Part shown: positions 20,040 to 27,986 of the stretch, piece after piece
How positions within the stretch are numbered: the stretch's first letter is position 1
Layout: each line of letters begins with the position of its first letter
Assembly: GCA_030603365.1 (NCBI GenBank)
Contig: JAUVXV010000003.1
Coordinates: 64,001-128,000, forward strand
DNA length: 64,000 bases
Origin: Candidatus Heimdallarchaeota archaeon
GTDB taxonomy: Archaea > Asgardarchaeota > Heimdallarchaeia > Heimdallarchaeales > Heimdallarchaeaceae
Direction: 5' to 3'
The notes under the pieces: model-generated
What the model saw: the letters and a program-made list of their open reading frames with translations, nothing else
Told to the model about the DNA's origin: nothing
Databases searched by the model: none
Translations under genes and position numbers: made by a program

Positions 20040-20696
20040 TTAGAGAACTTGCACCCATCTAGGTTCAAATTCCTCTTTTGCAAACTTGATTCTTACTAGT
20101 TGTTGGAGACCTTCAGGGTCATCTTTTCTCTGTGTTTCTATGACCATATCCACAATTGCATGGAGAGTATTCTCAATTTGTTGATCAATAACTCCTGAAT
20201 CTAATATGAGCAAAGCTGATTGTTTCCTCTGTCGAATACGAGCTGCAAGGGTTTGTAAGAAATTCAAAACCTGCATTGGTTTGTTATACAACATTAAAAC
20301 AGCAAGCTGATCGAAAACAATTCTTAATTTTTTTGCATTTTGCGATAATTCATTAATATTTACTGATAATGTAAGTAAATCACTTGCATGCTCTAAAAAG
20401 AAAGTGTTTTTTGTTTTTTCTTCAGGAACTGATCTATAAGAAAGAGAATCTATGAAGTGAATTTTACTAGTATCAATGTGTGTTTGCAGACCAGTAATCT
20501 CTGATTTTAACTGCTCGATATAATCAACTGCAGATAGAGCAAAAAGAACTACTAATACTGTTTCTCCATTTTGTATTCCATCTTCAATGTATCTAGCTGA
20601 AAGTACTTCTTTGGATGTTCCAGACTCTCCTGCCATTAATATTAGCGAACTTTCAACACTTTTCACCAACATATCAATTCTTGTATTTACAGACAT
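20040..20696 (-). CDS. Single-domain KaiC/RecA-superfamily protein with degenerate Walker A
   Basis: GESGTSKE, FIDSLS, RIVFDQL, VDMVIE. Confidence 0.7.
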   Translation of the reverse strand: MSVNTRIDMLVKSVESSLILMAGESGTSKEVLSARYIEDGIQNGETVLVVLFALSAVDYIEQLKSEITGLQTHIDTSKIHFIDSLSYRSVPEEKTKNTFFLEHASDLLTLSVNINELSQNAKKLRIVFDQLAVLMLYNKPMQVLNFLQTLAARIRQRKQSALLILDSGVIDQQIENTLHAIVDMVIETQRKDDPEGLQQLVRIKFAKEEFEPRWVQVL

Positions 20697-20711
20697 TAGA
20701 AAACCTCATAA

Positions 20712-21524
20712 CTAGGATAGTTGTTTAACTACATCTTTGCAGAATTTCAAGCCATCTTCTATAAAATTCTCAGTACTAATAGATTTAGCAGCCAATCTTA
20801 AACGGTGACTTGTTTGAATAGGAGTAATGCTAATTTTGTCTCTGTATTTATCTTCAAATAGGATTATAGCCGAACTTCTGTAGAATTCCTTTTCACCGTT
20901 ATAGTATAGATAGGCACATCCACATCCTAAAACAGCATCTACTGTGAGATAGGTTTTATCATAATCATCAACATCTTCAAGAGTGGGGATTTCTATCATT
21001 TGCTCTAGAAACAATTTTGCCATATCTATTGCTGAAGTTTTGATGTCCTCTTCTTTAATTTTAATTTTCTCGAAGGGATTCTTACCAATTAGTGTTTTTC
21101 CATGTTGAGCTACTAAAACTCTTGTCCAAGGATAATCTGTCGCTTCTCCACCTTTAGGTATTTCTTCTTCAGTTAGAACTTCAACATCTAACAAAGAACT
21201 GTACAATGGATCTTCAATGTATCTCAGAACAACTCTACTAATCTTCTCCATGGATTTTTTAAAATTATCCCCTGCTGCTTTTTCCTTTAAAACAATAAGA
21301 AAGTCACAATCAGATTCCCCTGCAATATGTTCTTTTGTAACTACGCTTCCAACCAATAGAAGACTGCTTACTATATCTTTTAAATCCGCTTTAACATCCT
21401 TTACAAACTCATCTATTAAATTCTGATACTCGTCTCTCATAAACATTGGACCTCTAGGCGGACCAGGAGGACGAGCTGGGGGACCAGTGGGAGGACCTGA
21501 AGGTTGTTCACTCATCGTTCTCAC
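20712..21524 (-). CDS. Pol-beta-type nucleotidyltransferase domain protein with Pro-rich N-terminus
   Basis: LVGS-x9-SDCDFLIVL plus a later LDV; helical C-terminal domain. Confidence 0.75.
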   Translation of the reverse strand: MRTMSEQPSGPPTGPPARPPGPPRGPMFMRDEYQNLIDEFVKDVKADLKDIVSSLLLVGSVVTKEHIAGESDCDFLIVLKEKAAGDNFKKSMEKISRVVLRYIEDPLYSSLLDVEVLTEEEIPKGGEATDYPWTRVLVAQHGKTLIGKNPFEKIKIKEEDIKTSAIDMAKLFLEQMIEIPTLEDVDDYDKTYLTVDAVLGCGCAYLYYNGEKEFYRSSAIILFEDKYRDKISITPIQTSHRLRLAAKSISTENFIEDGLKFCKDVVKQLS

Positions 21525-21690: not shown

Positions 21691-24660
21691 ATGGGGAAAA
21701 AAACTAAAAAGAACGACTTTGCTGAACAAAAAGAGCTATGCCCTCATAATATGTCATATGAGAAAATTGCAGAGGAGTTAAACACAGACCTAAAATTCGG
21801 ATTAAAGCACGAAGTTGTAGAAGAGAGATTAGAGAAGTTTGGAAAGAATGTTCTCCCAAAAGTCAAAGGGTCTGTCTGGGAGGTTTATATCGCACCACTA
21901 CTTAATTGGTTGATTAATATTTATCTAATTGTCGCAGTTGTAATGGTGATTTTAGGATTAGTTAAAGATTTTGCATTCAGAGGTCAATCAGAGTCTAGTG
22001 TGTGGGGACAAATAGGATTCTGGATGCTAATAATAGGTGTAAATATCATTTTTACAATATTCCAACAAATTAGAGCTCAATTCAAACTTGATGCTCTTCA
22101 TAAGCTATCAGCACCATCTTCAACTGTAATAAGAGATGGTGTTCCAGAGGATATCAGTGCTGAGTTGCTAGTCCCTGGTGATTTGATAGAACTAGACCAA
22201 GGAGACAGGGTTCCAGCTGATTCCCGAATCATTTATTCTAGCAATTGTCTGGTAAACGAAAGTGCTCTCACTGGTGAATCAGTTGCTGTAGAAAAAACAA
22301 ATTCTCCTCAGGTATGCTTAGAGGAAGATACTCCAATTTCACAGCGAATAAACATGCTCTATACTGGAACATTTCTGGAAGCTGGAAGAGCAATCGCAGT
22401 TGTTGCAAGTACAGGGATTTATACTGAATTAGGAAGATTATCAACAGAATTGCAGGAAATTGGTTCAAATGAAATTCCTATACGATCAAAGGTCAATAGA
22501 CTGGCAAAGTGGTTGGGGATAGCAGTAGTTGTATTTATTGTTGTGTCAGTAACTTACAAGATAATTTTCCATTCAGTTGGTGGTACTATAGGACAAATAG
22601 ATTTTGTTGATGATTTAGTTTTAACAGTAACAACATCCATGGCAATTATGCCAATCAGTATACCACTACTAACTACACTAATCTTGCTCACAGGAGTACT
22701 GGCTATGGCAAAAGATAGGGTGATAATAAGAAACTTATCTGCTGTAGAAACATTAGGTAGAAGCTCAATTTTGTGCAGTGATAAAACAGGGACTATTACT
22801 TCTAATCAGATGACAATTCAACGTATCTGGGATGTGGAAAGTTTCTATGGTGTCTCAGGTATAGGCTATAGTAACAAGGGGTCAATCTATCCCCTAGGTG
22901 AAGAATTCCCCGATTCATTTGATGAATATACTCTACCAGATTCCATCAAACCATTTGCAGAAGGATCATCTTTAGAATACTTACTAATTGGAGGAATGTT
23001 AAATAATAATGCTCATTTGATTGTGGAAGAAGTTTTTGAACCTCATCATCAAATTTCATGGAAGACAACAGGAGATCCTACAGATGGAGCATTTCTAGCA
23101 TTGTTTAACAAATCAGGTTTATCAGAAAAGACAGTACAATCTCAATTTGGATATCTATCAGAATTTAATTTTGATTCAGTAGTAAAAAGAATGAGCAAAA
23201 CCTATCAAGATGAAGAAGGATATATTTTGTTTTGTAAAGGAGCAACAGAAACAGTGTTGCCATTGTGCAATAGGTTAGGATATCCAGAATCAAATAGACC
23301 AATTACTGAAGAAGACAAAAAACAAATCATGGAGTATGTAAGTAAGTTTGCAGCTACAGGATATAGAGTAATATCCTTAGGTATAAGACCAATGGATAAA
23401 GATAAGACATTAACACACATCAGAGAGGAAGAAGAAAACAATCTAATATACAATGGGTTTGTGTGTATGCTGGATCCAGCAAGATATGGTGTAAAAGATG
23501 CAGTAGAAGAATGCCGTCAAGCTGGAATAACTCCAATTATGATTACAGGAGATAGTTCCATAACCGCAAAAGCAATAGCGAAAGAAGTAGGAATTGTAAA
23601 AGGGGAAGAACTAGCTGTAGAGGGAAACCAAATAAAAAATCTAACTGAAGAAGAGTTCTTTAAGACCAGAATATTTGCAAGAGTATCACCACAACATAAA
23701 CAAGTAATTGTAGATAGATACCAAAAGAAGGGAAAAATTGTATCGATGACAGGCGACGGGGTTAATGATGCTCTAGCTTTAACAAACGCTGATGTAGGTA
23801 TCTGTATGGGTATTGCTGGTACCGAAGTTGCTAAGCAAGCTTCTGATGTTGTCATTGCTGATGACAGTTTTACTAGTACTGTTCTTGGTATTCGTGAAGG
23901 TCGTGGTCTTTTTGATCGTATCCGTGTTATGATTTTCTTCTACATCACTCTCAATATTGCTGAAGCTATTCTTTATTTTGCTACTTCATTCATACCTAAT
24001 TTTTATATTGTTAATGATTTTCAACGTGTTTACATTTTTTCTACTGCTCACTTGATTCCTCCTTTTGCATTCATTTTCGATAGTATTGCTGATGAAATAA
24101 TGGATTTCCCTCCCCGAGATGATGAGGAAATTTTCAATAAGCGCTACGTTCTAGCTCTTGTTATTCTAGCTCTTTCTCTTGCTTTCTCAGCTGGTCTAGT
24201 CTATTTATTGGGATTTTTTGGTCCTGTAATTCTTTCTGAGTTCACTCATTCCGGTAATGTATCTGGATTGCTAAGTCTAGATAGTAACATCGCTTCTGCT
24301 CCTTTAGGATATGGACAAGCTAAAGCTAGAACAATGTTTGTCACCGTTCTTGTAATCGCAGAAAGTCTTATAGTTCTAAGTCTTAGGAGATTGAATAAGT
24401 CAGTTTTCAAATCTCTCAAAGAGGACTGGAATTGGGTGGTATTTGTACTTGTTATGATTGTACCTATACTTCATATCATTCTCATGTACATCCCTGCCTT
24501 GCAAAATCTTGTTGAATCGATAATGGGTACGGGTTATAGTCCTGGATTACTCCAACTGAATATTCTAGACTGGTTGATTGTTCTTGTAGCGGTAGCTATT
24601 CCACTAGTAACGATGGAAGTTTACAAATACTTCATTAGAAGGAGAAAATCTTATTATTGA
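21691..24660 (+). CDS. P-type ATPase, P2A-like scaffold with atypical transport site
   Basis: TGES, DKTGT, GDPTD, KGA, MITGD, FARVSP, GDGVND; TM4 reads PISIP instead of PEGLP. Confidence 0.9.
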   Translation: MGKKTKKNDFAEQKELCPHNMSYEKIAEELNTDLKFGLKHEVVEERLEKFGKNVLPKVKGSVWEVYIAPLLNWLINIYLIVAVVMVILGLVKDFAFRGQSESSVWGQIGFWMLIIGVNIIFTIFQQIRAQFKLDALHKLSAPSSTVIRDGVPEDISAELLVPGDLIELDQGDRVPADSRIIYSSNCLVNESALTGESVAVEKTNSPQVCLEEDTPISQRINMLYTGTFLEAGRAIAVVASTGIYTELGRLSTELQEIGSNEIPIRSKVNRLAKWLGIAVVVFIVVSVTYKIIFHSVGGTIGQIDFVDDLVLTVTTSMAIMPISIPLLTTLILLTGVLAMAKDRVIIRNLSAVETLGRSSILCSDKTGTITSNQMTIQRIWDVESFYGVSGIGYSNKGSIYPLGEEFPDSFDEYTLPDSIKPFAEGSSLEYLLIGGMLNNNAHLIVEEVFEPHHQISWKTTGDPTDGAFLALFNKSGLSEKTVQSQFGYLSEFNFDSVVKRMSKTYQDEEGYILFCKGATETVLPLCNRLGYPESNRPITEEDKKQIMEYVSKFAATGYRVISLGIRPMDKDKTLTHIREEEENNLIYNGFVCMLDPARYGVKDAVEECRQAGITPIMITGDSSITAKAIAKEVGIVKGEELAVEGNQIKNLTEEEFFKTRIFARVSPQHKQVIVDRYQKKGKIVSMTGDGVNDALALTNADVGICMGIAGTEVAKQASDVVIADDSFTSTVLGIREGRGLFDRIRVMIFFYITLNIAEAILYFATSFIPNFYIVNDFQRVYIFSTAHLIPPFAFIFDSIADEIMDFPPRDDEEIFNKRYVLALVILALSLAFSAGLVYLLGFFGPVILSEFTHSGNVSGLLSLDSNIASAPLGYGQAKARTMFVTVLVIAESLIVLSLRRLNKSVFKSLKEDWNWVVFVLVMIVPILHIILMYIPALQNLVESIMGTGYSPGLLQLNILDWLIVLVAVAIPLVTMEVYKYFIRRRKSYY

Positions 24661-24730: not shown

Positions 24731-26839
24731 ATGATGGGATCCGAAGAGCAAAACAGAATCAACAAGCATCCAATTCTGAGTGAAGAAGACTTTGAAATAG
24801 TTCCATTTTCTTTTAATGGTAAACAAGTTTCTGGTAAGAAAGGGGAGATGTTATCTTCAGCTTTAATTGCTAATGGAATCCAAATTTTTGGTCATCACCC
24901 AAAGGATCATGCACCTCAAGGGATTTTCTGTGCTAATGGTCAATGTGCTCAATGCACAGTTATTGTTGATGGTATTGCTGTCAAATCTTGTATGACTCCT
25001 CTTCAAGCAAATGTGAAGGTTGAGAGTGTTGAAGGGTATCCTGCTCTACCTGAAGATGATGAAGAAGTAGTATTTCAAGAAATAGAAACTGTGGAAACAG
25101 ATGTTTTAATCATTGGAGCTGGACCAGCTGGTTTACAAGCAGCTCTTACTTTAGGAAAACTGGGTGCAAAAATTATTCTTGTTGATGATAAAGATAGATT
25201 AGGAGGAAAACTTCTACTCCAAACACACAAGTTCTTTGGATCAGTGACTGATTCCTATGCTGGAACAAGAGGAATAGAAATTGCTAAAATTCTAGAAAAG
25301 GAAGTTCAATTGTACCCCAACATTGACATCTGGTTGAACAGTCCTTGTATAGGTGTGTTTTCAGATCAACTTGTTGGGATTTTGAAAGAAGAGATTTATC
25401 TTCATGTAAAACCTAAGAAACTTCTTGTAGCAACTGGTGCAAGAGAGAAGATGCTCGCTTTTCCGGGGAATACACTACCTGGAGTTTATGGAGCTGGTGC
25501 CTTCCAAACACTAGTCAATAGGGATTTAGTTAAGTCAAGTGAACAGATTTTTATCATTGGAGGAGGGAATGTTGGTATCATTGCAGGATACCATGCTATT
25601 CAAGCAGGAATTGAAGTTGTAGGTCTAGTTGAAGCTCTACCGAAATGTGGTGGATATAAAGTTCATGAGGATAAGCTAAGAAGACTAGGTGTACCTATCT
25701 ATACTAGACATACAGTTGTTGCTGTTCATGGAAAAGATCATGTTGAATCTACTACCATCTCTGAGATTGATGAAAAATTCCAACCAATAAAAGGAACTGA
25801 AAGAACCTTTGAAGTAGATACAGTTCTAATTGCTATAGGTTTAGATCCAGTAAACGAATTCTACCACAAAGCGAAAGAATTCTGTATGGATGTGTGGGCA
25901 GCTGGTGACGCTTATGAAATAGCAGAAGCTTCTTCTGCAATGTTCAGTGGTAAAATAGCTGGGATGAAAATAGCACGATCTTTGGGGTTAACAGAAGCGG
26001 AAGTACCGAAAGAGTGGGAGCTAAAAGTAGAAGTTTTGAAGAGTCATCCTGGTCCTGTAGTCCAAAGAGAAAAACCAATCAAAGAAGAAGGAATCTATCC
26101 AGTCTTTCATTGCAACCAAGAAATACCTTGCGATCCCTGCGCTTCAGTGTGTCCAAAAGAGTTGATAGCAATACCAGATGGAGGGATTTTAGGTTTACCA
26201 GAATTTCAAAACCAAGAGGAAATTGATTGTATAGGTTGCGCTCAGTGTGTTGCAGTATGTCCGGGTTTAGCAGTAACTTTAGTCGATTACAGAGATGACT
26301 CAAATAATCCATTGGTCACAATTCCAACAGAAATATTTATTGGAAAAATAGAGAAAGGAGAAGAATTACTAGTGGTTGGAGAAGATAGTGAGGATTTGGG
26401 TAAACACACTGTTGAGAAAGTTCGCATCCTCAAGAAATACCCAAACACACAGTTGATTACAGTTAGACTTCCTAAAGAGGAAGCATTAGAAGCAACTTCC
26501 TTCAGACTACCTAAAGGTAAGGATATTAAAGAGATTCAGAAATATCAAGATATTATTCCTGACACAGCAATAATCTGCAGATGCGAGAGAATTACAGCTG
26601 GTGAAATTCGAACACTCATCAAACAAGGAATAACTGATGCTAACGAATTAAAAGCAATTACGAAAATAGGGATGGGTGCATGCGGAGCTAAAACTTGTAC
26701 GAAGCTTATTGAAAAATTATTTAGAGAAGAACAAATTCCCTATGAAGAAATGACACCTTTTGTTCAGAGACCTCTATTTGTTGAAATCCCATTAAGGCAT
26801 TTTGCTGGTCTTTCCAAGGAGGAGAAACAAGATGACTAA
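24731..26839 (+). CDS. Sarcosine oxidase / L-proline dehydrogenase alpha-like subunit (2Fe-2S + FAD + 4Fe-4S + BFD-like)
   Basis: FCANGQCAQC, GAGPAG, ATGARE, CDPC..VCP / CIGCAQCVAVCP, ICRCE...GMGACG..C. Confidence 0.85.
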   Translation: MMGSEEQNRINKHPILSEEDFEIVPFSFNGKQVSGKKGEMLSSALIANGIQIFGHHPKDHAPQGIFCANGQCAQCTVIVDGIAVKSCMTPLQANVKVESVEGYPALPEDDEEVVFQEIETVETDVLIIGAGPAGLQAALTLGKLGAKIILVDDKDRLGGKLLLQTHKFFGSVTDSYAGTRGIEIAKILEKEVQLYPNIDIWLNSPCIGVFSDQLVGILKEEIYLHVKPKKLLVATGAREKMLAFPGNTLPGVYGAGAFQTLVNRDLVKSSEQIFIIGGGNVGIIAGYHAIQAGIEVVGLVEALPKCGGYKVHEDKLRRLGVPIYTRHTVVAVHGKDHVESTTISEIDEKFQPIKGTERTFEVDTVLIAIGLDPVNEFYHKAKEFCMDVWAAGDAYEIAEASSAMFSGKIAGMKIARSLGLTEAEVPKEWELKVEVLKSHPGPVVQREKPIKEEGIYPVFHCNQEIPCDPCASVCPKELIAIPDGGILGLPEFQNQEEIDCIGCAQCVAVCPGLAVTLVDYRDDSNNPLVTIPTEIFIGKIEKGEELLVVGEDSEDLGKHTVEKVRILKKYPNTQLITVRLPKEEALEATSFRLPKGKDIKEIQKYQDIIPDTAIICRCERITAGEIRTLIKQGITDANELKAITKIGMGACGAKTCTKLIEKLFREEQIPYEEMTPFVQRPLFVEIPLRHFAGLSKEEKQDD

Positions 26840-27986
26840 GAAGTATGATGTGGTTATCATTGGTGCTGGGAGTGTAGGTGTTCCTGCTGCTTATGCCATG
26901 TCCAGAGAGGGACTGAAAGTAGCAGTGATTGATGAACTCCCTTCAACTGGTCAAGGTCAGAATAAAAAAGCAATAGGGGGAATTCGAGCTACTCACACTA
27001 ATCCATCTAAGATTCTTCTATGTCAAGAATCAATTAATATTGTTGCTAGTTGGGAGAAGAAGTATGGAACAGACATTGAGTGGCATCAAGGTGGATATAC
27101 ATTTGTTGCATATAATGAAGCTCACGAACGACTCATGAAAGAAAATCTAGTAATTCAAAAAGAAGCAGGATTAAACATCAATTGGGTGGCTAGAGATAAA
27201 ATCATAGAACTTGTTCCAGGTATTAGTCAAGAAGGATTGCGAGGTGGAACTTACTCCCCTGAAGATGGTAACTCTTCACCTTTGAAGACTCTTCATGCTA
27301 TACAAAAACAGTCTGTTATTCAAGGAACAGATTACTTCTTCAAAGAATCAGTTGTGGATATTCAGACTGAGAATAATCATGTTAAGAAACTAATGACTAA
27401 CAAAGGGGTATATGAAGCTGATTACATTATCAATGCGGCAGGAGCTTATGCTAAAGAAATAGGGGAGATGGTGGGTGTTAATTTACCTGTATTTCCTGAC
27501 TCTCATGAATCAGGTATAAGTGAACCAGTCAAGAAATTCATTGATCCTCTGGTGGTTGATTTACGACCAGGTAAAGGTACCAAAAACTTCTACTTCTATC
27601 AGAACGAGGAAGGCAAATTTATTCTATGCCTCACACCTGAACCTTTGATTCCAGGAACAAATGAAAATGAAACTTCAGTCTTTCTACCCCAAGTAGCACA
27701 GAGATTAATCAATCTGATTCCTCGAACAAAACATCTCAAAATGAGAAGGACATGGAGAGGACTTTATCCTATGACTCCCGATGGGTCTCCTATCGTTGGG
27801 AAAGTACACAATCTTGAAGGGTATATCAATGCAGTTGGAATGTGCGGACAAGGTTACATGTTAGGTCCAGGATTGGGTGAATTACTAGCAAGATTGATTC
27901 TAGAAAAAACTTCTCCACACGATGAAAGAATGTTAGAAGAGCTATCTTTTTACAGAGATTTTGGAAAGGTTGAAAAACTGAAATAG
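26832..27986 (+). CDS. FAD-dependent amino-acid oxidase beta subunit (DAO/SoxB family)
   Basis: IIGAGSVG, NAAGAY, W.GLYPMTPDG.PIVG, GQGYMLGP; ATG at 26832 overlaps the upstream gene end. Confidence 0.88.
   Translation: MTKKYDVVIIGAGSVGVPAAYAMSREGLKVAVIDELPSTGQGQNKKAIGGIRATHTNPSKILLCQESINIVASWEKKYGTDIEWHQGGYTFVAYNEAHERLMKENLVIQKEAGLNINWVARDKIIELVPGISQEGLRGGTYSPEDGNSSPLKTLHAIQKQSVIQGTDYFFKESVVDIQTENNHVKKLMTNKGVYEADYIINAAGAYAKEIGEMVGVNLPVFPDSHESGISEPVKKFIDPLVVDLRPGKGTKNFYFYQNEEGKFILCLTPEPLIPGTNENETSVFLPQVAQRLINLIPRTKHLKMRRTWRGLYPMTPDGSPIVGKVHNLEGYINAVGMCGQGYMLGPGLGELLARLILEKTSPHDERMLEELSFYRDFGKVEKLK

What the first reader, a model, noticed from the sequence alone, without database searches (positions are those of the whole stretch)
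21691..24660. P2A-type ATPase with a flippase-like TM4 (PISIP) and a dismantled Ca2+ site
Seen: TM4 reads P321-I-S-I-P (nt 22651-22665) where SERCA-type pumps have PEGLP. TM6 QRVYIFSTAHLIP aligns with SERCA QLLWVNLVTDGLP, giving N796F, T799A and D800H plus an extra Arg. The TM5 N/E and TM8 E are retained, and cytoplasmic motifs (TGES, GDGVND) stay P2-type. Known: PISL in TM4 is the hallmark of P4 lipid flippases, regarded as eukaryote-specific. Inference: a non-Ca2+ pump, possibly a lipid translocator, either related to the origin of P4 or convergent on it.
Basis: partly seen in the sequence, partly recalled or inferred. Interest (0 to 1): 0.8.

Follow-up and report, generated by a model that had tools for sequence, protein, structure and literature searches.

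The report
Archaeal P-type pump, rebuilt ion site
This gene encodes an intact ATP-driven membrane pump from a large, apparently undescribed archaeal offshoot of the calcium-pump family whose calcium ligands are replaced around a glutamate-histidine pair, so it probably moves a small ion other than calcium; its flippase-like "PIS" motif is a late local variant of the family's "PIN" and no test run here links it to eukaryotic lipid flippases.

Summary
ORF 21691-24660 (+) encodes a 989-aa P-type ATPase with TM4 PISIP at nt 22651-22665. TM6 has Phe, Ala and His where SERCA has N796, T799 and D800. TGES, DKTGT, GDGVND, TM5 Asn/Glu and TM8 Glu are retained.

It is not a singleton. At least 139 homologues share TM4 P-hydrophobic-Asn-x-Pro, TM5 N..E and a TM6 His (138/139). 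A profile of this family matched 286 of 301 Asgard genomes sampled, and relatives occur in Bathyarchaeia, Nitrososphaeria, Korarchaeota, Methanomethylicus and Dehalogenimonas.

"PIS" is derived. Ten successive sister groups carry Asn, and sister genera read PITIP, PIAIP or PIMIP.

Domains, fold, HMM scores and trees place the family with prokaryotic PEGLP (P2A-like) pumps. The P4 model scores no better on it than on ordinary calcium pumps. The A domain is TGES, not DGET. The host genome also has a canonical Ca2+ pump. dN/dS is about 0.1.

Verdict: an orphan small-cation pump, not a Ca2+ pump of the usual kind, with unknown substrate. My guess is H+ or another monovalent ion, or a transition metal. 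The lipid-flippase or proto-P4 reading is not supported. The scan has reported this family on other genomes more than ten times, with the same verdict.

The parts
21691..24660 (+). Complete gene for a 989-aa P-type ATPase (P0001) with 10 predicted TM helices and A, N and P domains
   Evidence: ORF list and translation. Pfam Cation_ATPase_N, E1-E2_ATPase, Cation_ATPase, Hydrolase and Cation_ATPase_C all exceed their cut-offs. AlphaFold model: mean pLDDT 83.8, pTM 0.76.
22270..22281 (+). A-domain dephosphorylation motif TGES (aa 194-197)
   Evidence: Position. At least 95% conserved in 139 homologues. P4 flippases have DGET here (PMC4937031).
22651..22665 (+). TM4 motif P321-I-S-I-P at the unwound part of TM4. 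It takes the place of PEGLP in Ca2+ pumps; the family consensus is PINIP.
   Evidence: The model breaks the helix at 320-323.
22780..22794 (+). Phosphorylation motif DKTGT (D364)
23752..23769 (+). P-domain hinge motif GDGVND (aa 688-693)
23953..23964 (+). TM5 N755 and E758, equivalent to SERCA N768 and E771. E758 is invariant; N755 is present in 134 of 139.
24022..24060 (+). TM6 Q778-R-V-Y-I-F783-S-T-A786-H787-L-I-P790. F783, A786 and H787 stand at SERCA N796, T799 and D800. His is present in 138 of 139 homologues.
24361..24363 (+). TM8 E891, equivalent to SERCA E908. It is Glu in 115 of 139 homologues and Ile in 22 of 139.

Best explanation
The gene encodes a working P-type (Post-Albers cycle) pump. 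It belongs to a distinct, old, mainly archaeal family derived from the P2A-like calcium-pump stock. The motor is intact: ATP binding, Asp364 phosphorylation and TGES-catalysed dephosphorylation. The transport site has been rebuilt. SERCA site II is erased (Glu309->Ile, Asn796->Phe, Asp800->His). What remains is one pocket corresponding to site I, lined by E758 and N755 (TM5), H787 and Q778 (TM6), usually E891 (TM8), the backbone of the unwound TM4 and, in most members, Asn323 (Ser in this clade). I infer that it moves one small cation per cycle that is not Ca2+ bound in the usual way.

My split of the odds on the substrate:
- H+ or another monovalent cation, with the Glu-His pair as acceptor or built-in counter-charge: about 35%.
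- A divalent transition metal or Mg2+ held by Glu, His and Asn: about 30%.
- Ca2+ after all: about 10%.
- Something else: the rest.

Shown: the intact motor, the rebuilt and conserved site, the family's extent, purifying selection, P2 affinity, and a canonical Ca2+ pump paralogue. Inferred: that the conserved residues line one pocket (by homology to SERCA, not measured on the model), the direction of transport, and the substrate.
For: - Architecture and motifs.
- Site substitutions aligned to LMCA1 and SERCA.
- Family-wide conservation of P321, I322 (130/139), N323 (110/139), N755, E758, Q778, H787 (138/139) and P790.
- Sharp boundary to PEGLP pumps at about 480-500 bits among 50%-identity representatives.
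- Family profile matched (E <= 1e-100) in 286 of 301 Asgard genomes, 68 of 70 genera and 89 of 90 high-quality genomes, most at over 1200 bits; the weakest of these may be canonical pumps.
- Relatives in TACK archaea and Dehalogenimonas.
- Monophyly, and grouping with PEGLP pumps rather than with Asgard P3A.
- All named NCBIfam subfamily models fall below their cut-offs, and only the general P-type model passes.
- The top 50 fold matches are all P2 pumps.
- The same genome has a canonical PEGLP/NFDE/NLLTD pump plus CopA-like and ZntA-like pumps.
- dN/dS is 0.09-0.12.
- For a low-charge substrate: E758 is the only acidic membrane residue kept in all members, since E891 is Ile in 22 of 139.
- Precedents for a built-in charge or a single carboxylate in P1A and P3A pumps: PMC10654040.
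Against: - There is no biochemical or expression evidence of any kind.
- I could not read the model's coordinates, so the geometry of the pocket is inferred from homology only.
- No conserved gene neighbour points to a substrate.
- Against H+ export specifically: true P3A proton pumps coexist with this family in five of the genomes sampled.
- Against a divalent metal: only one universally conserved carboxylate.
- The trees lack P2B-D, P3B, P4, P5 and P6 references, and the backbone among PEGLP pumps is poorly supported, so 'derived from P2A-like stock' rests on limited sampling.
Confidence: 0.75

Rival explanations
1. It is still a Ca2+ (or Ca2+/Mn2+) pump that uses only the site-I-like pocket (N755, E758, E891 plus His) with altered affinity or direction, as proposed for other divergent pumps such as the P6 pump CtpE.
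For: - The best overall similarity is to Ca2+ pumps: LMCA1 at 1.5e-109, and PMR1 and SERCA models at 400-408 bits.
- Three of the five SERCA site-I side chains are kept.
- CtpE is a precedent for a Ca2+ transporter that lacks the TM6 Asp (PMC10654040).
Against: - D800, shared by both SERCA sites, is His in 138 of 139 members, and T799 is Ala.
- E891 is dispensable (Ile in 22 of 139).
- Every curated Ca2+-pump model is far below its cut-off (408 against 798, 400 against 703).
- The same genome, and most Asgard genomes sampled, carry a second match beside it; in this genome it is a canonical Ca2+ pump.
Confidence: 0.1
2. It is a lipid translocator: a prokaryotic flippase either ancestral to eukaryotic P4-ATPases or convergent on them. 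The TM4 Ile would act as a hydrophobic gate as in PISL.
For: - TM4 reads P-I-S-I, three of four residues identical to the P4 motif PISL, with Ile at the Glu309 position (PMC4937031).
- The host is a Heimdall-group Asgard archaeon.
- P4 pumps have no known prokaryotic relatives (PMC10654040).
Against: - Ser is derived from a family-wide Asn, and is replaced by Thr, Ala or Met in sister genera.
- The motif is TGES, not DGET.
- The Pfam terminal domains are Cation_ATPase_N/C, with no PhoLip_ATPase match listed.
- TIGR01652 scores 85 bits (cut-off 431), no higher than on canonical Ca2+ pumps.
- There is no P4 structure among the top 50 fold matches.
- The trees put the family with PEGLP pumps.
- True P3A proton pumps of Asgard archaea also have a hydrophobic residue plus x-x-Pro (PVALP).
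- The membrane core keeps E758 in all members and His787 in 138 of 139.
Confidence: 0.03
3. It no longer transports anything. It would be a P-type ATPase kept as a sensor, scaffold or regulator whose ion site has decayed.
For: The canonical ligands are lost. Scaffold roles have been discussed for some P4 pumps (PMC10654040).
Against: - The replaced positions are themselves strongly conserved: His 138/139, Glu 139/139 and Asn 134/139.
- All catalytic motifs are invariant.
- dN/dS is about 0.1.
- The family profile matches nearly all Asgard genomes sampled.
Decay would not give a fixed new residue set.
Confidence: 0.03

Closest known systems
P2A Ca2+-ATPases (Listeria LMCA1, PDB 6zhf/9euq; SERCA1/2; SPCA1/PMR1) and prokaryotic PEGLP pumps
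   Same: - Same domain order and Pfam set, with TGES, DKTGT and GDGVND.
- TM5 N..E and the TM8 Glu are kept.
- Best sequence matches, best HMM matches and best fold matches.
- Grouped together in trees that include P3A and P1B pumps.
   Different: - TM4 is PISIP (family consensus PINIP) instead of PEGLP.
- TM6 has Phe and His instead of Asn and Asp.
- Scores are about half of the curated cut-offs.
- The C-terminal membrane part alone is barely recognisable against SERCA (E = 0.64).
- The family forms its own clade (SH-aLRT 83-100).
P3A plasma-membrane H+-ATPases (AHA2, Pma1; Asgard members found here)
   Same: - A hydrophobic residue replaces the TM4 Glu and is followed by x-x-Pro: Asgard P3A reads PVALP, and Ile or Val at this position in P3 pumps is stated in PMC4937031.
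- TGES and GDGVND are shared.
- Few acidic residues lie in the membrane.
   Different: - P3A pumps have an Asp in TM6 (LND) where this family has His.
- TIGR01647 scores 299 bits against a cut-off of 615.
- P3A pumps fall outside the clade of this family plus PEGLP pumps (branch support 99).
- True P3A pumps coexist with the family in some genomes.
P4 lipid flippases (ATP8A1/2, Drs2, Neo1)
   Same: Ile at the position of the TM4 Glu, and P-I-S in this Heimdall clade only.
   Different: - DGET in P4 against TGES here.
- PhoLip_ATPase_N/C domains in P4 against Cation_ATPase_N/C here.
- The P4 HMM scores 85 bits against a cut-off of 431.
- There is no excess similarity over ordinary Ca2+ pumps.
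- No CDC50 was found (the test is uninformative).
- The family consensus is PIN, not PIS.
P6 ATPases (mycobacterial CtpE), as described in PMC10654040
   Same: A prokaryotic pump on a P2-like scaffold in which the TM6 Asp is replaced, and which has been proposed as a separate family. It is a precedent for treating such a clade as a family of its own.
   Different: CtpE keeps PEGL in TM4 and has Ile, not His, in TM6. No sequence comparison was made here.

Membership tests
P-type ATPase superfamily (HAD-IC, TIGR01494) | DKTGT phosphorylation site, TGES-type A-domain motif, GDGxND hinge, and a score above the family model's cut-off | tested here: met
   Motifs at aa 364, 194 and 688. TIGR01494 scores 265 bits against a cut-off of 62.3.
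P2A Ca2+-ATPase (SERCA, PMR1, LMCA1 type) | Score above the curated equivalog cut-offs (TIGR01116, TIGR01522) | tested here: not met
   400 bits against 703.4, and 408.6 bits against 798.3. Other family members behave the same way.
P2A Ca2+-ATPase (SERCA, PMR1, LMCA1 type) | TM4 PEGL with the gating and liganding Glu (SERCA E309) | tested here: not met
   PISIP aligns to PEALS of LMCA1, so Ile stands at the Glu position.
P2A Ca2+-ATPase (SERCA, PMR1, LMCA1 type) | TM6 Asn and Asp ligands (SERCA N796, D800) | tested here: not met
   F783 and H787 stand at these positions. His is present in 138 of 139 homologues.
P2A Ca2+-ATPase (SERCA, PMR1, LMCA1 type) | TM5 Asn and Glu and TM8 Glu (site I) | tested here: met
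   N755, E758 and E891 align to N768, E771 and E908. E891 is not universal in the family.
P4 lipid flippase | TM4 PISL conserved across the family | tested here: not met
   PISI occurs only in the close Heimdall clade. The family has PIN (110 of 139), and Ser is derived.
P4 lipid flippase | A-domain DGET in place of TGES | tested here: not met
   TGES at aa 194-197, at least 95% conserved. The DGET criterion comes from PMC4937031.
P4 lipid flippase | Match to the P4 model TIGR01652 or to the PhoLip_ATPase_N/C Pfam domains | tested here: not met
   85 bits against a cut-off of 431. This is no higher than for canonical Ca2+ pumps. Pfam gives Cation_ATPase_N/C instead.
P4 lipid flippase | CDC50 beta subunit (P4A and P4C only) | tested here: inconclusive
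   No PF03381 match in the own genome, which is 89% complete. The control search rang in no genome, so the test is uninformative.
P4 lipid flippase | Lipid-stimulated dephosphorylation and lipid transport | not testable with these tools
   This needs biochemistry.
P3A H+-ATPase | Score above the TIGR01647 cut-off, and a TM6 Asp as proton acceptor | tested here: not met
   299 bits against 615.5. His stands where Asgard P3A pumps have LND. P3A pumps fall outside the clade of this family plus PEGLP pumps.
Undescribed 'PINIP/His' archaeal P2-like family (defined here and in earlier reports of this scan) | TM4 P-hydrophobic-(N/S/T/A)-x-P, TM5 N..E, TM6 Q-x8-H-x2-P, and monophyly apart from PEGLP pumps | tested here: met

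The most novel reading that the evidence does not exclude
The PINIP/His pumps are a P-type ATPase subfamily of their own, comparable in rank to P2A-D or the recently proposed P6. A profile of the family matches nearly all Asgard genomes sampled, and relatives occur in TACK archaea. Their Glu-His site would carry a substrate that no characterised P2 or P3 pump handles in this way: for example a transition metal on a 10-helix P2 scaffold, protons through a histidine relay, or an organic cation. The extreme version, an archaeal lipid or head-group translocator, is not strictly excluded, but I give it 3% or less.
Probability: 0.4. Interest if true: 0.65.

Novelty: new variant of a known kind. Interest (0 to 1): 0.45.

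Why it matters
P-type ATPase families are defined by substrate, and reviews expect further prokaryotic families to turn up (PMC10654040). This is a large, strongly conserved pump family that databases label 'Ca2+-transporting ATPase' although it lacks the calcium ligands. It matters for three reasons:
- A profile of the family matches almost every Asgard genome sampled, usually beside a second, lower-scoring P-type match (in this genome a canonical Ca2+ pump), so it is probably part of the basic ion housekeeping of the closest archaeal relatives of eukaryotes.
- Current annotation would mislead reconstructions of Asgard 'calcium signalling'.
- The near-invariant histidine at the central TM6 position is, as far as I know, unlike any characterised P2 or P3 pump, and is directly testable by expression and mutagenesis.

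It does not open a route to the origin of P4 flippases.

Tried and rejected
I studied neighbourhoods instead on 18 loci cut from genomes plus the window. Nothing was conserved beyond synteny among close relatives.
- A ZIP gene and a CDF gene lie near the pump in two further loci only. That is too sporadic to count as evidence for a metal substrate.
- Sequencing runs: no RNA holder was listed, and read laying was not used.
- A literature search for 'PINIP' returned only unrelated words.
- Searches for Asgard, P4 and FUPA papers found no description of this family. Chan et al. 2010, which defined the FUPA families, is not in the library, so I cannot rule out that TCDB already lists the family under a number.
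- The C-terminal 250 aa alone against the PDB gave nothing at 1e-8 and only SERCA at E = 0.64.
- A search among longer proteins found no fused forms of the family.
- The CDC50 search was uninformative because the control rang nowhere.
- The sigma-70 promoter and terminator scan does not apply to an archaeon and was at background level.
- I did not use complex prediction, because no partner protein is proposed.
- A full P-type phylogeny with P2B-D, P3B, P4, P5 and P6 references could not be built, because no reference sequences could be fetched by reference.
Full report
**Observation.** The window holds one long open frame at 21691-24660 on the + strand, encoding 989 aa (P0001).
- Translating nt 22639-22680 gives MAIMPISIPLLTTL, so PISIP lies at 22651-22665.
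- Translating nt 24022-24060 gives QRVYIFSTAHLIP.
- Pfam finds the full P2/P3-type set: Cation_ATPase_N, E1-E2_ATPase, Cation_ATPase, Hydrolase and Cation_ATPase_C.
- TGES (194), DKTGT (364) and GDGVND (688) are present.
- The best solved relatives are Listeria LMCA1 (1.5e-109), SERCA, SPCA1 and Na,K-ATPase.
- In the printed alignment PISIP lies on the calcium pump's PEALS, and F783 and H787 lie on its TM6 Asn and Asp.
- Against SERCA1, N755/E758 fall on N768/E771 and E891 on E908 (a weak alignment when the C-terminal part is taken alone).

**Not a singleton, and 'PIS' is not the family motif.**
- A word-indexed search returned 119 close-to-moderate relatives (41-88% identity), named where named at all as Heimdall-, Hod-, Thor-, Odin- and Promethearchaeota and Dehalogenimonas proteins.
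- An exhaustive HMMER search of 1.8 billion cluster representatives added about 45 deeper clusters, some from Korarchaeota and Helarchaeota.
- All of them share TM4 P-(I/V/L/F/W)-N-(I/L/F)-(P/V/I), TM5 N..E and TM6 Q-x8-H-x2-P. Below about 480-500 bits the hits switch abruptly to PEGLP / N..E / N..D pumps.
- In 139 full-length members, E758 is invariant, H787 is His in 138, N755 is Asn in 134, position 322 is Ile in 130, and position 323 is Asn in 110, Ser in 24, Thr in 2, Ala in 2 and Met in 1. E891 is Glu in 115 but Ile in 22.
- On a tree rooted with the genome's own P1B pumps, ten successive sister groups on the path from the family root to the window's protein carry Asn at position 323. 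Ser appears only in the terminal Heimdall clade, beside Met, Ala and Thr variants.
- Same-genus orthologues read PISIP. Two other genera of the same family read PITIP.

The resemblance to PISL is thus a late and locally variable state of one position.

**Distribution.**
- A profile of the family (A1) matched 286 of 301 sampled genomes of the window's phylum at E <= 1e-100: 68 of 70 genera and 89 of 90 high-quality genomes. Most matches scored above 1200 bits and some lie in tandem pairs. The weakest matches near the threshold may be canonical PEGLP pumps, so the count is an upper bound.
- A scan of species-representative genomes with the Dehalogenimonas member found relatives in Bathyarchaeia, Nitrososphaeria, Methanomethylicus and Atabeyarchaeia as well as Asgard genomes.
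- The family is therefore broadly archaeal (Asgard plus TACK), with at least one bacterial holder.

**Affinity.**
- NCBIfam places P0001 nearest the P2 models: PMR1 408, SERCA 400, ENA 394, PMCA 388 and Na,K 341 bits. P3 follows at about 300-310 bits, P5 at 233 and P4 last at 85. All are far below their curated cut-offs, and only the general P-type model passes.
- The P4 model scores 85-114 bits on three family members and 103-105 bits on two canonical PEGLP pumps. There is no special similarity to flippases.
- The AlphaFold model (pLDDT 83.8, pTM 0.76) shows TM4 unwound at 320-323. All of its top 50 Foldseek matches are SERCA, SPCA1, LMCA1, Na,K-ATPase or H,K-ATPase.
- FastTree and IQ-TREE recover the family as one clade (SH-like 82, SH-aLRT 83-100).
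- I added four true Asgard P3A proton pumps, found in 9 of 61 genomes at 700-1077 bits. The P3A pumps then fell outside a 99-supported group holding the PEGLP pumps and this family.
- Those P3A pumps read PVALP in TM4, and the two whose TM6 my motif search located read LND there. A hydrophobic residue at the Glu position followed by x-x-Pro is therefore not specific to flippases, as PMC4937031 also states for P3 pumps.

**Context.**
- The host genome (3.65 Mb, 89% complete) encodes four P-type pumps: a CopA-like pump, a ZntA-like pump, a canonical PEGLP / NFDE / NLLTD pump, and this one. The gene is thus a paralogue with its own role, not the cell's calcium pump.
- Neighbours in the window are a nucleotidyltransferase-like gene and a KaiC-like gene upstream, and a two-gene FAD / 2Fe-2S oxidoreductase downstream.
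- Across 19 loci from diverse Asgard genomes no neighbour is conserved. A ZIP gene and a CDF gene sit nearby in two other loci only.
- No fused forms were found.
- dN/dS against four same-genus orthologues is 0.09-0.12, with dS near saturation.

**Mechanism.**
- What is shown: an intact P-type motor, an erased site II, and a new, fixed set of polar residues at positions that line site I in SERCA.
- By homology I infer a single pocket formed by E758, N755, H787, Q778, usually E891, and the TM4 backbone with Asn323 (Ser here).
- Only one carboxylate is universal, which fits a low-charge substrate.
- The near-invariant His suggests one of three roles: a proton relay, a built-in counter-charge (compare the Lys of KdpB and the Arg of P3A pumps in PMC10654040), or a ligand for a borderline metal.
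- Co-occurrence with true P3A pumps in five genomes argues mildly against a plain proton exporter. The single carboxylate argues mildly against a divalent metal.
- My odds: about 35% monovalent cation or H+, about 30% transition metal or Mg2+, about 10% Ca2+, and 3% or less lipid.

**Comparison and novelty.**
- The family works like, and descends from the stock of, P2A-type pumps. It fails the defining tests for P2A (ligands, curated cut-offs), for P3A (TM6 Asp, cut-off, tree) and for P4 (DGET, P4 domains, HMM, family-wide motif).
- I found no paper describing it. The 2023 review lists CtpE as a new P6 family and expects further prokaryotic families.
- I rate it a new variant of a known kind.
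- Earlier reports of this scan reached the same verdict on more than ten other genomes. That is agreement, not independent evidence.
  1. the TACK and Dehalogenimonas members;
  2. the Ile variant of the TM8 Glu;
  3. the explicit polarity of N to S at position 323;
  4. the Asgard P3A comparison;
  5. the selection estimate.

Noticed in passing
G000 contig C9:167226-170798 (L002), C12 (L001), C1 (L003): The same genome encodes a canonical P2A-type pump (VPEGLP, NFDE, NLLTDALP), a CopA-like pump with an HMA domain and CPC motif, and a second CPC (ZntA-like) pump. That makes four P-type ATPases in all.
   Followed up: partly
L040-L043 (G041, G058, G034, G060) and five further genomes: True P3A plasma-membrane-type H+-ATPases (700-1077 bits against a cut-off of 615) occur in 9 of 61 sampled Asgard genomes. 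Their TM4 reads PVALP, and TM6 reads LND in the two where my motif search located it. They coexist with the PINIP family in at least five genomes. The own genome has none.
   Followed up: partly
window 24731-27986 (+): Two overlapping genes. The first encodes a 702-aa protein with an N-terminal 2Fe-2S domain, a pyridine-nucleotide-disulphide oxidoreductase domain, a 4Fe-4S domain and a BFD-like 2Fe-2S domain. The second encodes a 394-aa DAO-type FAD oxidoreductase. Together they resemble the alpha/beta pair of sarcosine-oxidase or proline-dehydrogenase-type complexes.
   Followed up: no
window 20040-21524 (-): A KaiC-like ATPase (218 aa) and a nucleotidyltransferase-domain protein with a Pro-rich N-terminus (270 aa) lie as a pair upstream of the pump. 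The same pair recurs beside the pump in two related genomes (L006, L019, clusters 5 and 6).
   Followed up: no
proteins P0164, P0198, P0200, P0221, P0269: A second non-canonical group sits among the PEGLP pumps. TM5 reads SSNAGL (Leu in place of the SERCA E771 Glu) and TM6 reads VTNGLP (Asn in place of D800). This may be another pump group with an altered ion site.
   Followed up: no
L023 (Dehalogenimonas sp. chromosome CP139473.1) against L024 (Candidatus Asgardarchaeum abyssi): The bacterial Dehalogenimonas copy is 49-54% identical to most of the archaeal members found (41% to one Heimdall copy) and was the only bacterial holder found. This suggests horizontal transfer from archaea into Chloroflexota.
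   Followed up: no
G025:C86:1220-7492 and G141:C50:1812-8517: Some Asgard genomes carry two family members in tandem.
   Followed up: no
L024:2249-3022 and L029:1355-2245: A ZIP-family and a CDF-family metal transporter gene lie 1-2 kb upstream of the pump in one Asgard MAG and one Nitrososphaeria MAG. They are not conserved in related loci.
   Followed up: partly
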